A stretch of DNA of 18,551 nt from a virus: the UHGV virus genome UHGV-0121047. One strand, 5' to 3'. Each line of letters begins with the position of its first letter. The stretch's first letter is position 1. Under the pieces are notes generated by a model. It saw only the letters and a program-made list of their open reading frames with translations. It did no database searches and was not told the origin of the DNA. Positions 11,463 through 12,766 of this stretch are shown piece by piece. The position numbers were made by a program, and so were the translations under genes.

Positions 11463-11545
11463 GGTTATGTAGTTTAATTTGGTTAAAATACTCCCACGTA
11501 AAAGGATATTGGGAGATGATGTGAGTTCAAGCCTCATCGTAACCG
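11463..11545 (+). tRNA. tRNA-like gene with aberrant anticodon arm (6-bp stem with 13-nt loop); identity undetermined, possible pseudo-tRNA
   Basis: Good acceptor (GGTTATG/CGTAACC), D arm and T arm (GTGAG-TTCAAGC-CTCAT) and CCA, but the anticodon region CTCCCA-CGTAAAAGGATAT-TGGGAG carries about 8 extra nt. Confidence 0.4.
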
Positions 11546-11603
11546 CCAATTTTGAGAGGGCTATTTAGCCCCTCCCTTAAAGAGTTCTTACGAGTATTCT
11601 TTA

Positions 11604-11681
11604 AAGGAGCAGAAGACCAAATTCAGCAAGTTACTTAAAATTTCAAGCCAATTCAATTTTGAAAAATTTAAAACTTGGTCT
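11604..11681 (+). repeat. Stem-flanked element C (left arm CAGAAGACCAAATTCAGCAA, right arm TTGGTCTGG)
   Basis: 7-bp complementary arms 11604-11610 / 11675-11681 enclosing 64 AT-rich nt. Confidence 0.5.
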
Positions 11682-11698
11682 GGCTCAACAAATTTACA

Positions 11699-11828
11699 GA
11701 AGACCGTTTACAGCAAAAATTAAACAATCTATTTCTCGGTAAAGAAAAGGAGAAGGTTCGATTCCTTCACTCGACAGATGTCGAGTTGGTGTAATGGTAG
11801 CACTTAAGATGATAAACAACGGTCTGGT
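11699..11828 (+). ncRNA. Stem-flanked element D containing a circularly permuted tRNA-like domain (T arm, closed acceptor-like hairpin, D arm); candidate Y-RNA-like (YrlA-like) structured RNA
   Basis: 8-bp closing stem AGACCGTT (11701-11708) / AACGGTCT (11818-11825); inside, in this order: T-arm GAAGG-TTCGATT-CCTTC (11752-11768), hairpin ACTCGAC-AGAT-GTCGAGT (11769-11786), D-arm-like GTGT-AATGGTA-GCAC (11789-11803). Confidence 0.4.
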
Positions 11829-11830
11829 AA

Positions 11831-11972
11831 TCATCTTTGCAGTAGCTTATGTGGCTAATTATGTCGTCCCATGAGTGCCGATGAATTTCCTTAGCATGAT
11901 TCTAGATTAGCTTAATAGGAAATGACTCTACAGACCCTTTAGCAAGGTCTGCGTAGGTTACTGCAAAGATGA
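11831..11972 (+). repeat. Perfect 14-bp inverted repeat TCATCTTTGCAGTA / TACTGCAAAGATGA enclosing about 115 nt with an internal hairpin (CAGACC...GGTCTG); candidate long-stem structured RNA
   Basis: Arms at 11831-11844 and 11959-11972 are exact reverse complements; no ORF; directly upstream of tRNA-Lys. Confidence 0.5.
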
Positions 11973-11978
11973 TTTAAT

Positions 11979-12051
11979 GGAAGTGTAGCAGAATGGTGAT
12001 GCGGCAGACTTTTAATCTGACAGGCGATGGGTTCGAATCCCTCCACTTCTA
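11979..12051 (+). tRNA. tRNA-Lys (anticodon TTT)
   Basis: Acceptor GGAAGTG/CACTTCT, anticodon arm with loop CTTTTAA, T-loop GGTTCGAATCC, CCA encoded; T stem has only 3 clean pairs (ATGGG/CCCTC), the same unusual T arm as the CTT isoacceptor. Confidence 0.6.
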
Positions 12052-12058
12052 CCAAAAT

Positions 12059-12132
12059 GGTTCAGTCGCAGATAAGGTAATGCAAGGGTCTCATAAGCCC
12101 TATGAATGTGGGTTCGATTCCCATCTGAACCT
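12059..12132 (+). tRNA. tRNA-Met or tRNA-Ile2 (anticodon CAT)
   Basis: Acceptor GGTTCAG/CTGAACC perfect, anticodon arm AGGGT-CTCATAA-GCCCT, T arm GTGGG-TTCGATT-CCCAT, CCA encoded. Confidence 0.75.
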
Positions 12133-12137
12133 CCAAT

Positions 12138-12210
12138 GCTGTGAAAGCACATATGGATGTGCATTCGGCTGATAACCGAAAGGCAGAAGGTTCGAATCCT
12201 TCTCACAGTA
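12138..12210 (+). tRNA. tRNA-Ile (anticodon GAT)
   Basis: D arm GCAC/GTGC, anticodon arm TTCGG-CTGATAA-CCGAA, T arm GAAGG-TTCGAAT-CCTTC, CCA encoded. Confidence 0.8.
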
Positions 12211-12228
12211 CCAATTTCAATAAAGTTG

Positions 12229-12257
12229 TTGACATTGAGATGTGACTACTTTATAGT
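12229..12257 (+). promoter_or_regulatory. Strong internal sigma70-like promoter within the tRNA array
   Basis: TTGACA 12229-12234, 17-bp spacer, TATAGT 12252-12257. Confidence 0.6.
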
Positions 12258-12461
12258 AACCTTAGTTTTCGTTGCGTAGCGTCTATTTTGCAAATTTAAA
12301 ATAAATGCAAACGACAATGTTTTTCTGGCAGTAGCTTGATAGGCTAAACACCAGTGAGGTCTTCCAATCCCTCATCAAAGAATTTGGCGTACTAGCCCAC
12401 GGTATGATTAATAAGGTGGGCATCTTTAAGGGCTTTCTAAGAGAGTCTTTAAAGATAATTA

Positions 12462-12540
12462 CGGGGCGTATCTCATCTGTCTTCTAAACAGACGTTAACC
12501 GAGTAAGTGGAGTATGCGGGTTCGAGTCCTGCCGCCTCGA
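12462..12540 (+). tRNA. tRNA-Arg-like element (anticodon TCT) with canonical anticodon and T arms but no room for a normal D arm; possible aberrant or pseudo-tRNA
   Basis: Anticodon hairpin TCTGT-CTTCTAA-ACAGA (12476-12492), T arm GCGGG-TTCGAGT-CCTGC, acceptor CGGGGCG/CGCCTCG, CCA encoded; only 7 nt between acceptor and anticodon stem and 23 nt between anticodon and T arms. Confidence 0.4.
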
Positions 12541-12686
12541 CCAATTTAGTTAGCAGATTACTTAGACGACCTAAGCGGGTCTTCCTGTAGGGAGGTGGTC
12601 TGTATCTCATGTTTTCCAGAACATGTAAATAATCTGAGAAGGGGCTTTACAGTGTTGAGACAATACGGTAAGCTTCGAATTATAGT

Positions 12687-12766
12687 ATGGGACGATGTTA
12701 AGACTCTAAGGAATGAGCAACGGCTTCCAACACCGTTTCAAAGGGGTTCAACCCCTCCGTCCCATG
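12687..12766 (+). tRNA. tRNA-like gene with 9-nt anticodon loop (CTTCCAACA, Gly-TCC-like) and extended acceptor-to-D linker; possible pseudo-tRNA or unconventional tRNA
   Basis: Perfect 7-bp acceptor ATGGGAC/GTCCCAT, T-loop GGTTCAACCCC, anticodon stem AACGG/CCGTT with 9-nt loop, CCA encoded. Confidence 0.4.

What the first reader, a model, noticed from the sequence alone, without database searches (positions are those of the whole stretch)
11463..12766. Three tRNA-like genes with canonical acceptor and T arms but non-canonical cores
11463-11545 has a 13-nt anticodon loop on a 6-bp stem. 12462-12540 has a perfect Arg(TCT) anticodon hairpin but only 7 nt where the D arm should be and 23 nt before the T arm. 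12687-12766 has a 9-nt anticodon loop (CTTCCAACA, a Gly-TCC loop plus 2 nt) and an 8-nt extended linker. They could be pseudo-tRNAs, decoys for host nucleases, frameshift-type tRNAs with expanded loops, or errors in my hand folding.
Basis: seen in the sequence. Interest (0 to 1): 0.55.

Follow-up and report, generated by a model that had tools for sequence, protein, structure and literature searches.

The report
Phage tRNAs with rewired cores
Two of the three odd tRNA-like genes in this Felix O1-type phage are real, conserved tRNAs (arginine and tryptophan) built on non-standard skeletons, one of them a phage-wide design with the D arm wrapped around the anticodon arm that standard gene finders miss; the third looks like a recently disabled aspartate tRNA.

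Summary
The window is the tRNA cluster of a Felix O1-like phage.

Candidate 2 (12462-12543) belongs to a widespread, essentially phage-only family of tRNA-Arg (51 UCU, 1 CCU, 1 ACG). In it, a 3-bp D-type helix encloses the anticodon arm, and a D-loop-like block (UAAKUGGAGUAU) follows just before the T arm. That helix pairs in 36 of 36 distinct sequences, and all three pairs covary. The gene alternates with a canonical tRNA-Arg(UCU) in the same slot. AGA+AGG make up 48% of Arg codons here.

Candidate 3 (12687-12769) is an Ounavirinae-specific tRNA-Trp(CCA), not Gly. It has a 10-nt acceptor-to-D linker, a 3-bp D stem, and compensatory changes in three stems. wV8 carries another tRNA-Trp in that slot.

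Candidate 1 (11463-11548) is a tRNA-Asp allele whose anticodon loop was replaced by 15 nt. It occurs in about 10 of 188 records and is probably non-decoding.

ARAGORN finds no Arg, Trp or Asp tRNA in the window, so the three candidates sit in exactly those slots. I found no published description of the rewired Arg architecture. Aminoacylation, decoding and 3D shape are inferred, not shown.

The parts
11463..11548 (+). Candidate 1: tRNA-Asp-derived gene. It has a normal acceptor stem, D arm, T arm, G73 and CCA, but no GUC anticodon.
   Evidence: Rfam tRNA 45 bits. Positional orthologue of Felix O1 tRNA-Asp(GTC). The 5' half is identical to a common canonical Asp allele.
11496..11510 (+). Candidate 1: 15-nt replacement (ACGTAAAAGGATATT) of the 7-nt anticodon loop CTGTCAC. 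It can fold into an extended arm with a 6-nt loop.
   Evidence: Alignments; fold; no donor copy in the window.
12462..12543 (+). Candidate 2: rewired tRNA-Arg(UCU), 82 nt including the encoded CCA.
   Evidence: Rfam 33.4 bits. Family model R1 gives 99.8 bits, against 39.5 or less for ordinary tRNAs. Covariation.
12472..12474 (+). Candidate 2: CUC, the 5' strand of the long-range D-type helix. It is followed by one nucleotide (12475) and then the anticodon arm.
   Evidence: Pairs with 12501-12503 in 36 of 36 distinct family members, and all 3 pairs change on both sides.
12476..12492 (+). Candidate 2: anticodon arm UCUGU-CUUCUAA-ACAGA; anticodon UCU at 12483-12485.
   Evidence: All five stem pairs covary. 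The loop is YUUCUAM in nearly all members.
12493..12500 (+). Candidate 2: 8-nt linker CGUUAACC. C-R-U-Y-A-A is nearly invariant; the last two bases vary.
   Evidence: Column composition.
12501..12503 (+). Candidate 2: GAG, the 3' strand of the long-range D-type helix.
12504..12515 (+). Candidate 2: D-loop-like block UAAGUGGAGUAU (an A14/A15-like pair of A's, GG, then A), placed just before the T arm.
   Evidence: Still conserved as UAA-N-Y-GG-A-GUAU when the family is selected through its 5' half only.
12516..12532 (+). Candidate 2: T arm GCGGG-UUCGAGU-CCUGC.
12687..12769 (+). Candidate 3: non-canonical tRNA-Trp(CCA), 83 nt including the encoded CCA. It has A1:U72, G73 and anticodon CCA at 12727-12729.
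   Evidence: ARAGORN in mitochondrial mode calls Trp(cca). Six pairs show compensatory change. wV8 has a different tRNA-Trp(CCA) in the same slot.
12694..12703 (+). Candidate 3: 10-nt acceptor-to-D linker GAUGUUAAGA, where normal tRNAs have 2 nt. It is invariant in all 10 variants and contains the GUUAA-NN motif also found 5' of candidate 2's D-type strand.
12704..12717 (+). Candidate 3: D arm CUC-UAAGGAAU-GAG (3 bp).
   Evidence: CUC/GAG becomes CAC/GUG in Mooglevirus.
12719..12737 (+). Candidate 3: anticodon arm with a 5-bp stem AACGG/CCGUU, a constant C.A, and the 7-nt core UUCCAAC.
   Evidence: The stem becomes GUAAG/CUUAC in Mordin and EcSzw-2; U-CCA-A is invariant.
12229..12257 (+). Sigma-70-type promoter match TTGACA-17-TATAGT upstream of the tag module and candidate 2. 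The predicted start is A at 12264.
   Evidence: 11 of 12 consensus positions matched, the best site in the region. The predicted 5' end AGUUUUCGU is conserved in the lambdoid copies.
12264..12421 (+). tmRNA-like coding module with no tRNA-like domain. The tag frame 12307-12336 encodes ANDNVFLAVA, with stops at 12337-12342. A hairpin (12355-12374) and a pseudoknot (12388-12421) follow. It lies directly upstream of candidate 2; any functional link is unproven.

Best explanation
The interval holds three tRNA genes of a Felix O1-type phage that depart from the cloverleaf in three different ways.

(1) Candidate 2 is the phage's AGA/AGG decoder. It is a tRNA-Arg(UCU) from a widespread phage-borne family with a rearranged core. 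After the acceptor strand and U-A-U comes one strand of a 3-bp D-type helix, then one nucleotide, then a normal anticodon arm. An 8-nt linker (CGUUAANN) follows, then the other strand of the helix, then a D-loop-like block (UAAKUGGAGUAU), and finally a normal T arm, acceptor strand, A/G73 and CCA. All four helices of a tRNA are present, but the D-loop segment and the anticodon-arm segment have swapped order. Inferred steps: the D-type helix stacks on the anticodon stem as in a normal tRNA. The GG of the displaced D-loop block reaches the T loop. U8 with the first A of the block, and the second A with the U before the T stem, stand in for the U8-A14 and 15-48 contacts. This would restore an L shape that RNase P, ArgRS (via C35, U36, A/G73 and the A after GG acting as A20), EF-Tu and the ribosome accept.

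(2) Candidate 3 is the phage's tRNA-Trp(CCA). Its topology is normal, but it has a 10-nt acceptor-to-D linker, a 3-bp D stem and a C.A next to the 7-nt loop. It is confined to Ounavirinae.

(3) Candidate 1 is a recent allele of tRNA-Asp in which a 15-nt patch replaced the anticodon loop. It has lost the main AspRS identity element and is most likely non-decoding: either a young pseudogene or a tRNA-shaped RNA with some other use.

Shown: sequence anatomy, conservation, covariation, slot equivalence, distribution and codon demand. Inferred: expression, processing, charging, decoding and 3D fold.
For: Context: the window is a Felix O1-like tRNA cluster. ARAGORN finds 23 tRNAs but none for Arg, Asp or Trp.

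Candidate 2:
- Between this window and T5-like phage Spivey there are three compensatory changes in the anticodon stem, while the linkers are identical.
- Across 36 distinct sequences, 98.1% of cells pair and 18 of 20 pairs change on both sides. Helix 11-13/40-42 is 100% paired, with UA/GC/AU/CG at 12:41. Shuffled and slid controls collapse to 37-49% paired. These pairs are among the highest mutual-information column pairs.
- Covariance model R1 scores members at 84-103 bits and ordinary tRNAs at 39.5 or less.
- The D-loop-like block stays conserved when the family is selected through the 5' half only, and 44 of 49 such hits have 3 of 3 helix pairs.
- All 53 distinct members carry Arg anticodons: 51 UCU, 1 CCU, 1 ACG. 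A canonical Arg with the same anticodon co-occurs in at most 2 of 76 loci, and one of those two is the rewired gene itself re-called. Canonical Arg tRNAs with other anticodons co-occur often.
- Mooglevirus, REP7 and FGS030 carry a canonical tRNA-Arg(UCU) in the same slot.
- The discriminator is A or G in 35 of 36.
- AGA+AGG are 63 of 130 Arg codons in the window's long ORFs. The Felix O1 genome paper noted that the expected AGA tRNA was missing (PMC3185647).
- The family occurs in 263 phage records across unrelated lineages. Only 3 true hits occur among 185,579 species genomes, all on short MAG contigs, two of which (L221, L227) are dense tRNA arrays.

Candidate 3:
- It is conserved in 254 Ounavirinae records.
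- Compensatory changes occur in the anticodon, D and T stems. 94.5% of cells pair, 6 pairs covary, and no slid control shows any.
- ARAGORN in mitochondrial mode calls Trp(cca).
- A1:U72, G73 and CCA match the E. coli TrpRS identity set (established knowledge).
- wV8 has another tRNA-Trp(CCA) in the slot.
- Sf14 is reported to have tRNAs for only 19 amino acids (PMC12482277).

Candidate 1:
- It aligns with tRNA-Asp(GTC) everywhere except the loop.
- Only 10 of 188 records carry this allele at >=95% identity.
Against: There is no experimental evidence here for transcription, 5'/3' processing, aminoacylation or ribosomal use of any of the three.

Candidate 2: the single-sequence fold is no more stable than shuffles (z = 0.04), and RNAalifold does not predict the 3-bp helix by itself. 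The 3D model is reasoning by analogy. The A20-equivalent assignment is unproven. Enteric members carry G2:C71-G3:U70-G4:C69-A73, which could attract AlaRS.

Candidate 3: variation is limited to 10 distinct sequences from one subfamily, so each covariation may be a single event. A49.C65 is a constant mismatch, and the T loop is atypical in Felixounavirus. Rfam does not recognise it.

Candidate 1: the four carriers show too few substitutions to tell drift from selection.

Novelty rests on not finding a description in an open-access library, and subscription literature was not searched.
Confidence: 0.75

Rival explanations
1. All three are decaying tRNA pseudogenes: leftovers of the frequent rearrangements and homing-endonuclease insertions in this cluster, with no function.
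For: The cluster is riddled with HNH endonuclease genes and insertion breakpoints. Default ARAGORN rejects all three. Candidate 1 is a rare allele that has lost its anticodon. Felix O1's own tRNA list already contains 'pseudo' calls.
Against: Candidates 2 and 3 keep every stem through compensatory substitutions. Candidate 2's architecture is maintained without indels in 36-53 distinct sequences from unrelated phage lineages. Both replace ordinary tRNAs of the same anticodon in the same slot. Pseudogenes would not conserve the unpaired linkers almost perfectly.
Confidence: 0.06
2. They are tRNA mimics that do not translate. Instead they act as decoys or sponges for host tRNA-targeting defence nucleases, or for other tRNA-binding proteins, protecting host or phage tRNAs.
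For: Phage tRNAs have been proposed to counter anticodon nucleases (PMC10264068, listed). Candidate 2 keeps a perfect Arg anticodon loop on an unusual body. Candidate 1 keeps a tRNA body without an anticodon. The family is almost exclusive to phages.
Against: Candidates 2 and 3 retain the discriminator, anticodon and encoded CCA needed for charging. Candidate 2 varies in anticodon only within arginine (UCU, CCU, ACG), it is complementary in distribution to canonical same-anticodon tRNAs, and it matches a strong AGA/AGG demand. A decoy need not be the only AGA-type tRNA in the array. Evasion and decoding are not mutually exclusive.
Confidence: 0.1
3. Candidate 2 is the alanine-accepting tRNA-like partner of the tmRNA-like tag module directly upstream, together forming a split phage trans-translation device.
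For: A promoter-driven, tmRNA-like module sits 40 nt upstream. It has the tag ANDNVFLAVA**, stops in a hairpin, and a pseudoknot. In the window, candidate 2 has G2:C71, G3:U70, G4:C69 and A73, like tRNA-Ala and tmRNA.
Against: G3:U70 is present in only 6 of 36 family members, and it also occurs in Spivey and BIS47, which lack the module upstream. Mooglevirus and REP7 keep the module but have a canonical tRNA-Arg with A3:U70 in the slot. HK633 has the module without candidate 2. Every member has an arginine anticodon loop, which a tmRNA-type domain does not need.
Confidence: 0.04
4. The enlarged loops of candidates 1 and 3 make them quadruplet or frameshift decoders.
For: Candidate 3 has 9 unpaired-looking loop bases and candidate 1 has 13-15. 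Frameshift suppressor tRNAs with 8-nt loops are known (established knowledge).
Against: In candidate 3 the two extra bases are a constant C.A that brackets an invariant canonical 7-nt core with U33, CCA and A37. Candidate 1's loop is far beyond any known decoding loop, can fold into an extended stem, and is a rare recent allele.
Confidence: 0.04

Closest known systems
Canonical phage and bacterial tRNA-Arg(UCU), for example the Mooglevirus allele in the same slot
   Same: Same genomic slot and same anticodon loop CUUCUAA. The anticodon arm is often identical (ACGGU/ACCGU). Both have a normal T arm, a 7-bp acceptor stem, A/G73 and an encoded CCA.
   Different: In candidate 2 the D hairpin between positions 9 and 26 is absent. 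Its two strands flank the anticodon arm, and the D-loop-like sequence sits where the variable loop would be.
D-armless mitochondrial tRNAs (for example nematode and mammalian mt-tRNA-Ser; review PMC7609411)
   Same: No local D hairpin between the acceptor and anticodon stems, and standard tRNA finders fail on them. ARAGORN's mitochondrial mode is the mode that reports candidates 2 and 3.
   Different: Mitochondrial forms have lost the D arm and rely on a flexible connector. Here a D-type helix and a GG-containing D-loop block are kept but moved, the T arm is fully canonical, and the setting is phage genomes infecting bacteria. The review does not mention phages or rearranged cores.
Circularly permuted and split tRNA genes (Cyanidioschyzon merolae, Nanoarchaeum; own knowledge and papers listed)
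   Same: The order of tRNA segments in the gene differs from the cloverleaf order.
   Different: In those cases processing restores a normal mature tRNA. In candidate 2 the 5' and 3' ends are the normal acceptor ends, and the swap is internal, so it should persist in the mature RNA (inferred).
tmRNA tRNA-like domain
   Same: Acceptor stem plus T arm without a normal D stem. Enteric members of the candidate 2 family have G3:U70 and A73. A tmRNA-like tag module lies just upstream.
   Different: Candidate 2 has a true anticodon arm with arginine anticodons, G3:U70 is not conserved, and no coding domain is inserted in it.
E. coli tRNA-Trp(CCA) and its hinge variants (Hirsh G24A, A9C, 4-bp anticodon stem; PMC13092985)
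   Same: Candidate 3 has A1:U72, G73 and, in most variants, the same loop CUCCAAA. Its differences fall in the same hinge region (positions 8-12, 23-26) whose mutation changes UGA reading.
   Different: Candidate 3 has 8 extra nucleotides in the 8-9 linker, a 3-bp D stem and a C.A next to the loop. No effect on decoding has been tested.
Frameshift-suppressor tRNAs with expanded anticodon loops
   Same: Loops larger than 7 nt in candidates 1 and 3.
   Different: Known suppressors have 8-nt loops. Candidate 3's extra bases form a constant C.A bracket, and candidate 1's 13-15 nt are far outside that range.

Membership tests
tRNA (Rfam RF00005 / cloverleaf) | 7-bp acceptor stem, discriminator base and 3' CCA | tested here: met
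   All three meet this. Candidate 1: GGUUAUG/CGUAACC-G-CCA. Candidate 2: CGGGGCG/CGCCUCG-A-CCA. Candidate 3: AUGGGAC/GUCCCAU-G-CCA.
tRNA (Rfam RF00005 / cloverleaf) | T arm with a 5-bp stem and UUCRANY loop | tested here: met
   Candidates 1 and 2 are canonical. Candidate 3 has 4 pairs plus a constant A.C, with loop UUCAACC here and UUCGAAU in Mooglevirus.
tRNA (Rfam RF00005 / cloverleaf) | D hairpin located between positions 9 and 26 | tested here: not met
   Candidate 2 has no local hairpin, and the helix strands lie on either side of the anticodon arm. Candidate 1 meets this feature. Candidate 3 has a 3-bp D hairpin, but it sits 10 nt from the acceptor stem instead of 2.
tRNA (Rfam RF00005 / cloverleaf) | 5-bp anticodon stem with a 7-nt loop (U33, purine 37) | tested here: inconclusive
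   Candidate 2: met. Candidate 3: 9 loop positions, readable as C.A plus a canonical 7-nt core. Candidate 1: not met, with 13-15 nt.
tRNA (Rfam RF00005 / cloverleaf) | Score at or above the curated gathering threshold (29 bits) | tested here: inconclusive
   Candidate 1 scores 45 and candidate 2 scores 33.4, so both pass. Candidate 3 gives no hit even at E<=10.
Arginine-accepting tRNA (E. coli ArgRS identity set: C35, U/G36, A/G73, A20) | C35 and U36 or G36 in the anticodon | tested here: met
   All 53 distinct family members have UCU, CCU or ACG.
Arginine-accepting tRNA (E. coli ArgRS identity set: C35, U/G36, A/G73, A20) | Purine discriminator (A73 or G73) | tested here: met
   A in 15, G in 20 and C in 1 of 36.
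Arginine-accepting tRNA (E. coli ArgRS identity set: C35, U/G36, A/G73, A20) | A20 in the D loop | tested here: inconclusive
   An A follows the invariant GG in the displaced D-loop-like block in nearly all members. Whether it occupies the A20 position in space cannot be tested here.
Arginine-accepting tRNA | Aminoacylation by ArgRS | not testable with these tools
   Needs an in vitro charging assay or acid-gel Northern.
Tryptophan-accepting tRNA (E. coli TrpRS identity set: C34 C35 A36, G73, A1:U72) | Anticodon CCA, G73 and A1:U72 | tested here: met
   CCA and G73 are invariant in the 10 variants. Position 1:72 is A:U in 7 and G.U in 3. ARAGORN in mitochondrial mode calls Trp(cca).
Aspartate-accepting tRNA (AspRS identity: G34 U35 C36, C38, G73, G10) | Anticodon GUC | tested here: not met
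   In candidate 1 the loop CUGUCAC is replaced by ACGUAAAAGGAUAUU. G73 and G10 remain.
tmRNA (RF00023) tRNA-like domain | G3:U70 alanine identity conserved across the family, with no anticodon arm | tested here: not met
   Position 3:70 is G.U in 6 of 36, and otherwise G-C, C-G, U-A or A-U. Every member has an anticodon arm.
tmRNA (RF00023), applied to the upstream module 12264-12421 | Tag reading frame without a start codon, stops in a hairpin, and flanking pseudoknots | tested here: met
   The tag family is AN[DE]xx[FY]LAVA*, with synonymous third-position variation. A helix encloses the stops, and the pseudoknot stems covary. The Rfam score is only 15.4 bits, against a gathering score of 47.
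tmRNA (RF00023), applied to the upstream module 12264-12421 | Acceptor and T-arm domain joined to the coding domain | tested here: not met
   None was found by ARAGORN or Rfam, either in the window module or in HK633.

The most novel reading that the evidence does not exclude
In Felix O1-type phages, the promoter-driven transcript 12264-12543 could be a split trans-translation device. On this reading, the tmRNA-like coding RNA (tag ANDNVFLAVA), which has no tRNA-like domain of its own, works together with the rewired tRNA. The enteric versions of that tRNA carry the tRNA-Ala/tmRNA acceptor signature G2:C71-G3:U70-G4:C69-A73. The phage would then tag, or rescue, stalled host ribosomes on its own terms.

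A weaker but still new variant: the transposed-core tRNA-Arg is misread by AlaRS or escapes a host tRNA-targeting defence, and that is why phages keep this architecture.
Probability: 0.04. Interest if true: 0.95.

Novelty: new variant of a known kind. Interest (0 to 1): 0.8.

Why it matters
If the rewired tRNA-Arg is charged and used on the ribosome, it would be a natural tRNA whose helices are connected in a different order from the cloverleaf. That would show the L shape can be reached by another topology, and that RNase P, ArgRS, EF-Tu and the ribosome tolerate it.

It is not a curiosity of one genome. It occurs in hundreds of phages from unrelated lineages and is almost absent from cellular genomes, yet it is unannotated in most records. 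Phage tRNA repertoires and codon-adaptation analyses therefore under-count AGA/AGG decoders. The Felix O1 paper explicitly noted the 'missing' AGA tRNA. The tRNA-Trp found here likewise probably fills the 20th amino acid that the tRNA counts for this subfamily leave out (Sf14 is reported with 19).

The design could also be a ready-made scaffold for orthogonal tRNAs, and a probe for what host tRNA-targeting defences actually recognise.

Tried and rejected
(1) Alanine/tmRNA-domain idea for candidate 2. It was prompted by G3:U70 + A73 and the upstream tag. I rejected it because 3:70 varies freely across the family and the slot holds a canonical tRNA-Arg in sister phages.

(2) Gly(UCC) reading of candidate 3. 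Rejected because Mooglevirus and Suspvirus variants read C-CUCCAAA-A, which leaves only U-CCA-A invariant.

(3) My first reading of a 'compensatory' C3:G70 to U3:A70 change in candidate 1 as evidence of selection. Rejected because that acceptor and D arm are simply another common canonical Asp allele.

(4) Search for a donor of candidate 1's 15-nt patch. Nothing in the window beyond chance. The two IMG/VR matches (L178, L179) are unrelated sequence.

(5) Loose pattern ATGTTAAGANNNTAAGG for distant relatives of candidate 3. Of 120 loci, all but the Felix-like ones were chance hits.

(6) ARAGORN's low-threshold 'permuted tmRNA' call (window 11962-12430). It borrows neighbouring tRNA arms and is not credible as a gene, so only the tag was retained.

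(7) Host ssrA as the source of the tag module. No blastn match to E. coli ssrA; the matches are prophages and ~110-kb plasmids.

(8) A tRNA-like partner for the tag module in lambdoid phages. I found complex tRNA-like units downstream but no G3:U70 and no consistent partner.

(9) Literature searches for a prior description. None was found. The search on tag strings was uninformative because 'flava' matched flavonoid papers.

(10) Thermodynamic folding alone. It is uninformative for candidate 2 (z = 0.04).

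
Full report
WHAT THE WINDOW IS. The 18.5-kb window contains the tRNA cluster of a Felix O1-like myovirus (Ounavirinae). A 5-kb query matches 316 phage records at 80-97% identity, including Felix O1 itself. Default ARAGORN finds 23 tRNAs between 10867 and 15719. None is for Arg, Asp or Trp, and none overlaps the three flagged elements.

CHECK OF THE OBSERVATION.
- Candidate 1: Rfam's tRNA model hits 11463-11545 at 45 bits, with 15 nt where the 7-nt anticodon loop belongs.
- Candidate 2: Rfam's tRNA model hits 12462-12540 at 33.4 bits (gathering score 29). Four nt replace the 15-nt D arm, and 20 nt are inserted ahead of the T arm.
- Candidate 3: 12687-12766 gets no Rfam hit even at E<=10. 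However, its proposed fold is the minimum-energy structure (z = -2.4).
- No tool finds a standard cloverleaf at shifted coordinates. Relaxed ARAGORN calls candidate 1 only with an 'intron' or as an oversized-loop Tyr. Its mitochondrial mode calls candidate 3 as Trp(cca).

CANDIDATE 2: A REWIRED tRNA-Arg.
Structure. Alignment with the T5-like Klebsiella phage Spivey shows three compensatory double changes in the anticodon stem (UCUGU/ACAGA to ACGGG/CCCGU). The odd 'linkers' stay identical. Pattern scans of IMG/VR then recovered 36-53 distinct homologues with no indels. The common plan is:
- acceptor strand (7 nt), then U-A-U;
- C-N-N, then one nucleotide;
- anticodon arm (5 bp with a 7-nt loop);
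- C-R-U-Y-A-A-N-N;
- N-N-G, then U-A-A-K-U-G-G-A-G-U-A-U;
- T arm, acceptor strand, A or G, then CCA.
The CNN and NNG triplets pair: CUC/GAG, CUU/AAG, CAU/AUG, CGC/GCG, CGG/CCG, CAG/CUG, UCC/GGA.

Covariation. On 36 distinct sequences, 98.1% of cells pair and 18 of 20 pairs change on both sides. The short long-range helix is paired in 100% of sequences, and all three of its pairs covary. Shuffled controls never reach these values, and sliding the partners by 1-3 columns drops pairing to 37-49%. These pairs are among the highest mutual-information column pairs. RNAalifold does not predict the 3-bp helix on its own, which explains why gene finders see 'no D arm'.

Family model. A covariance model built with this structure scores family members at 84-103 bits and ordinary tRNAs at 39.5 or less.

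Ascertainment control. My first selection used the 3' motif, so I re-selected through the 5' half only. The downstream block is still UAA-N-Y-GG-A-GUAU, and 44 of 49 structurally valid hits keep all three helix pairs.

READING OF THE ARCHITECTURE (INFERENCE). All four tRNA helices are present, but two adjacent segments have changed places. A normal tRNA runs 8-9, [D 5' strand + D loop], [D 3' strand + 26 + anticodon arm + 44/45], 46-48, T arm. Here the order of the two bracketed segments is reversed.
- The strand that runs through one nucleotide into the anticodon stem behaves like positions 23-25 plus 26.
- The strand followed by U-AAKUGGA behaves like positions 10-12, 13 and the D loop (A14, A15, G18, G19, A20).
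- The invariant U at family-alignment column 10 and the invariant U at column 43 face each other like a 13.22 pair.
- The final U before the T stem can stand in for position 48, opposite the A15-like base.
- Each new junction joins elements that are neighbours in the L-shaped structure: 7/8 next to 21/22, 21 next to 46-48, and 43/44 next to 10.
A canonical 3D shape is therefore plausible, but none of this is shown.

WHY IT IS AN ARGININE tRNA IN USE.
- All 53 distinct members carry arginine anticodons: 51 UCU, 1 CCU, 1 ACG.
- The discriminator is A or G in 35 of 36, and an A follows the invariant GG. These are the elements of the E. coli ArgRS identity set (established knowledge).
- In Mooglevirus phages, the same slot behind the same upstream hairpin holds an ordinary 77-nt tRNA-Arg(UCU).
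- Among near-identical Felixounaviruses, REP7 and FGS030 carry the ordinary allele while REP10 and this window carry the rewired one.
- In the phage database, 116 records match candidate 2 at >=95% identity. About 78 match the canonical Moogle-type allele at >=90%.
- In 76 loci with a rewired member, ARAGORN finds a same-anticodon tRNA-Arg in only two, and one of those is the rewired gene itself re-called. Canonical Arg tRNAs with other anticodons are common alongside.
- In the window's long ORFs, AGA+AGG are 63 of 130 arginine codons.
- The Felix O1 genome paper remarked that a tRNA for the over-used AGA codon was expected but not found (PMC3185647). The Felix O1 copy of candidate 2 is simply unannotated (L001:2520-2601).

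DISTRIBUTION. The family is present in 263 phage records: Felixounavirus, T5-like Klebsiella phages, phi92-like and rV5-like phages, ~350-kb jumbo coliphages, and Proteus, Streptomyces, Listeria and Vibrio phages. It is nearly always unannotated or labelled 'tRNA-OTHER'. In one genome per species for 185,579 bacterial and archaeal species, the motif gives 17 matches. Only three have the architecture, all on short MAG contigs; two of these (L221, L227) are dense tRNA arrays. One viral contig (L020) has two rewired genes (CCU and a divergent UCU) beside canonical Arg(ACG) and Arg(CCG).

CANDIDATE 3: A NON-STANDARD tRNA-Trp. The region is conserved in 254 records, all Ounavirinae, and is never annotated. 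Ten distinct variants show:
- anticodon stem AACGG/CCGUU changing to GUAAG/CUUAC;
- D stem CUC/GAG changing to CAC/GUG;
- T stem G50:C64 changing to U:A.
Overall 94.5% of cells pair, six pairs change on both sides, and none does so in any slid control.
The nine loop positions read C-[Y-U-C-C-A-A-M]-A. The outer C.A is constant, and the inner seven have U33, CCA and A37, so the anticodon is CCA. Together with A1:U72 and G73, this is the E. coli TrpRS identity set (established knowledge).
ARAGORN's mitochondrial mode independently calls Trp(cca). In wV8 and a few others, homology breaks exactly at 12686/12687. There the slot holds a different, reduced-D-arm tRNA-Trp(CCA) that ARAGORN and Rfam do recognise, followed by an HNH-like gene. 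Sf14 is reported to encode tRNAs for 19 amino acids (PMC12482277), and no Trp tRNA is annotated in the stretch fetched, so candidate 3 would supply the twentieth.
What is unusual:
- a 10-nt invariant linker GAUGUUAAGA between the acceptor and D stems, where normal tRNAs have 2 nt;
- a 3-bp D stem;
- the C.A next to the loop;
- a constant A49.C65.
The motif GUUAA-NN-(D strand)-UAAG..GGA is shared with candidate 2. This suggests a common structural module, but I could not test that.
The remodelled region is the 'hinge' whose mutation (A9C, G24A) lets tRNA-Trp(CCA) read UGA (PMC13092985). That is a lead, not a finding.

CANDIDATE 1: A DISABLED tRNA-Asp ALLELE. It occupies the slot of Felix O1 tRNA-Asp(GTC), directly after tRNA-Tyr. 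Its acceptor and D arm are identical to a common canonical Asp allele, and its T arm matches the Felix O1 allele. The only real difference is that CUGUCAC became ACGUAAAAGGAUAUU. Of 188 records, 10 carry this allele at >=95% identity and the rest have a normal Asp gene. Four carriers share an identical loop, and their few other differences keep pairing only through G.U wobbles. That is too little change to tell drift from selection. The new loop can extend the stem and leave a 6-nt loop. No donor sequence exists in the window. The GUC anticodon is the main AspRS identity element, so charging is unlikely. I rate a young pseudogene at about 60% and some other tRNA-shaped function as possible.

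COMPARISON WITH WHAT IS KNOWN. The 2020 review of natural non-canonical tRNAs covers tRNA-Sec, selC*-tRNA-Cys, allo-tRNAs, tRNA-Pyl and armless mitochondrial tRNAs. It mentions neither phages nor a transposed D arm. Eight further full-text searches found no description of this architecture or of the tag module. The library holds only open-access papers and preprints, so the novelty claim is provisional. Some pipelines have labelled family members 'tRNA-Arg' or 'tRNA-OTHER', so the genes are not entirely unseen; the structural reading appears to be.

SIDE FINDINGS.
(a) Tag module. Between tRNA-Ile and candidate 2 lies a promoter-driven, tmRNA-like module. Its tag frame encodes ANDNVFLAVA** with no start codon. 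The stops sit in a hairpin, and a pseudoknot follows. Homologues in Felix-like and many lambdoid contigs carry tags AN[DE]xx[FY]LAVA with synonymous third-position changes. Pseudoknot stems covary or lengthen in a complementary way. No tRNA-like domain accompanies it.
(b) Inside-out unit. At 11697-11827 sits a conserved tRNA-like unit with a T arm and a D arm. Its acceptor stem is closed by a loop and covaries. Its open ends sit in a stem AGACCGU/ACGGUCU. Three shorter inter-tRNA repeats share that terminal motif.

VERDICT. Candidate 2 in particular is a strongly supported, widespread and apparently undescribed tRNA topology that deserves experimental work.

Noticed in passing
window 12264-12421 (+); promoter 12229-12257; tag frame 12307-12336, stops 12337-12342: A tmRNA-like coding module with no tRNA-like domain. 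It has a start-codon-less tag ANDNVFLAVA**, stops inside a hairpin, the hairpin UGAGG..CCUCA, and an H-type pseudoknot with covarying stems. Homologues carry tags AN[DE]xx[FY]LAVA and show synonymous-site variation. They occur in Felix-like phages, in lambdoid phages (HK633, between PR'/qut and the holin gene), in Vi01-like and N4-like phages, and in ~110-kb E. coli plasmids. How a tag template works without an acceptor domain is unexplained.
   Followed up: partly
L003 (HK633) 1620-1830; L183, L187, L191, L202, L206, L211 downstream of the tag module: In lambdoid contigs the tag module is followed by units bounded by the inverted repeat ACAAC-AGGTAAGAGCAYT ... AGTGCTCTTTCC-GTTGTGGTG. After that comes a tRNA or a large tRNA-like RNA with acceptor UGUGGUG/CRCCACA-N-CCA and 100-250 nt of insert. 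ARAGORN calls nothing in most of them. The GTGCTCTTTCC motif also precedes the tag module itself.
   Followed up: partly
window 11697-11827 (+): An 'inside-out' tRNA-like unit conserved across Felixounavirus, Mooglevirus and Suspvirus. It has a T arm (11752-11768) and a D arm (11789-11803). Its acceptor-like stem ACUCGAC/GUCGAGU is closed by a 4-nt loop (11769-11786) and covaries (Sf14 ACACG/CGUGU, Mordin ACCCUUC/GAAGGGU). A variable-arm-like hairpin is also present, and the open ends sit in the stem AGACCGU (11701-11707)/ACGGUCU (11819-11825). There is no free acceptor end and no CCA. One GenBank record annotates a 131-nt 'tRNA-Thr' there.
   Followed up: partly
window 11039-11111, 11206-11270, 11610-11683 (+): Three 65-75-nt inter-tRNA repeats share the ends CAGAAGACC(R)WWT(W)CAGCAA ... 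YGGTCTGG (terminal stem AGACCRW/WYGGUCU), the same ends as the inside-out unit. They could be small structured RNAs, processing spacers or miniature mobile elements.
   Followed up: no
window 12464/12537 (positions 3:70 of candidate 2) and 12540: In Felix-like, Spivey and BIS47 members, the rewired tRNA-Arg has G2:C71, G3:U70, G4:C69 and A/G73. This is the acceptor signature that makes tRNAs substrates of AlaRS. It is not conserved in the wider family (6 of 36). Possible dual Arg/Ala identity was not tested.
   Followed up: partly
window 12686/12687; L033 (wV8) 1642-2138; L001 (Felix O1) 2572-2964: Homology between relatives breaks exactly at tRNA gene edges, where HNH or endonuclease VII-like genes are inserted. 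In Felix O1, warpig, heid and mio the insertion follows candidate 2. In wV8 it follows the alternative tRNA-Trp. This fits homing-endonuclease-driven swapping of tRNA alleles.
   Followed up: partly
window 12422-12456 (+): A long, nearly perfect hairpin AUCUUUAAGGGCUUUCUAAGAGAGUCUUUAAAGAU lies 5 nt upstream of candidate 2. It is conserved in Mooglevirus ahead of the canonical tRNA-Arg. It may be a processing signal between the tag module and the tRNA.
   Followed up: no
L020 13348-13429: A divergent second version of the rewired Arg(UCU) plan. Its linker after the anticodon arm is 4 nt instead of 8, and 8 nt instead of 4 separate the GGA from the T arm. It scores 56.9 bits with model R1, so the family has structural sub-types.
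   Followed up: no
window 12655-12686 (+): Promoter-like matches TTGAGA-17-AATTAT and GAGACA-18-TATAGT end immediately before candidate 3. The stretch is highly conserved across genera. The predicted start would fall a few bases inside the tRNA, so its meaning is unclear.
   Followed up: no
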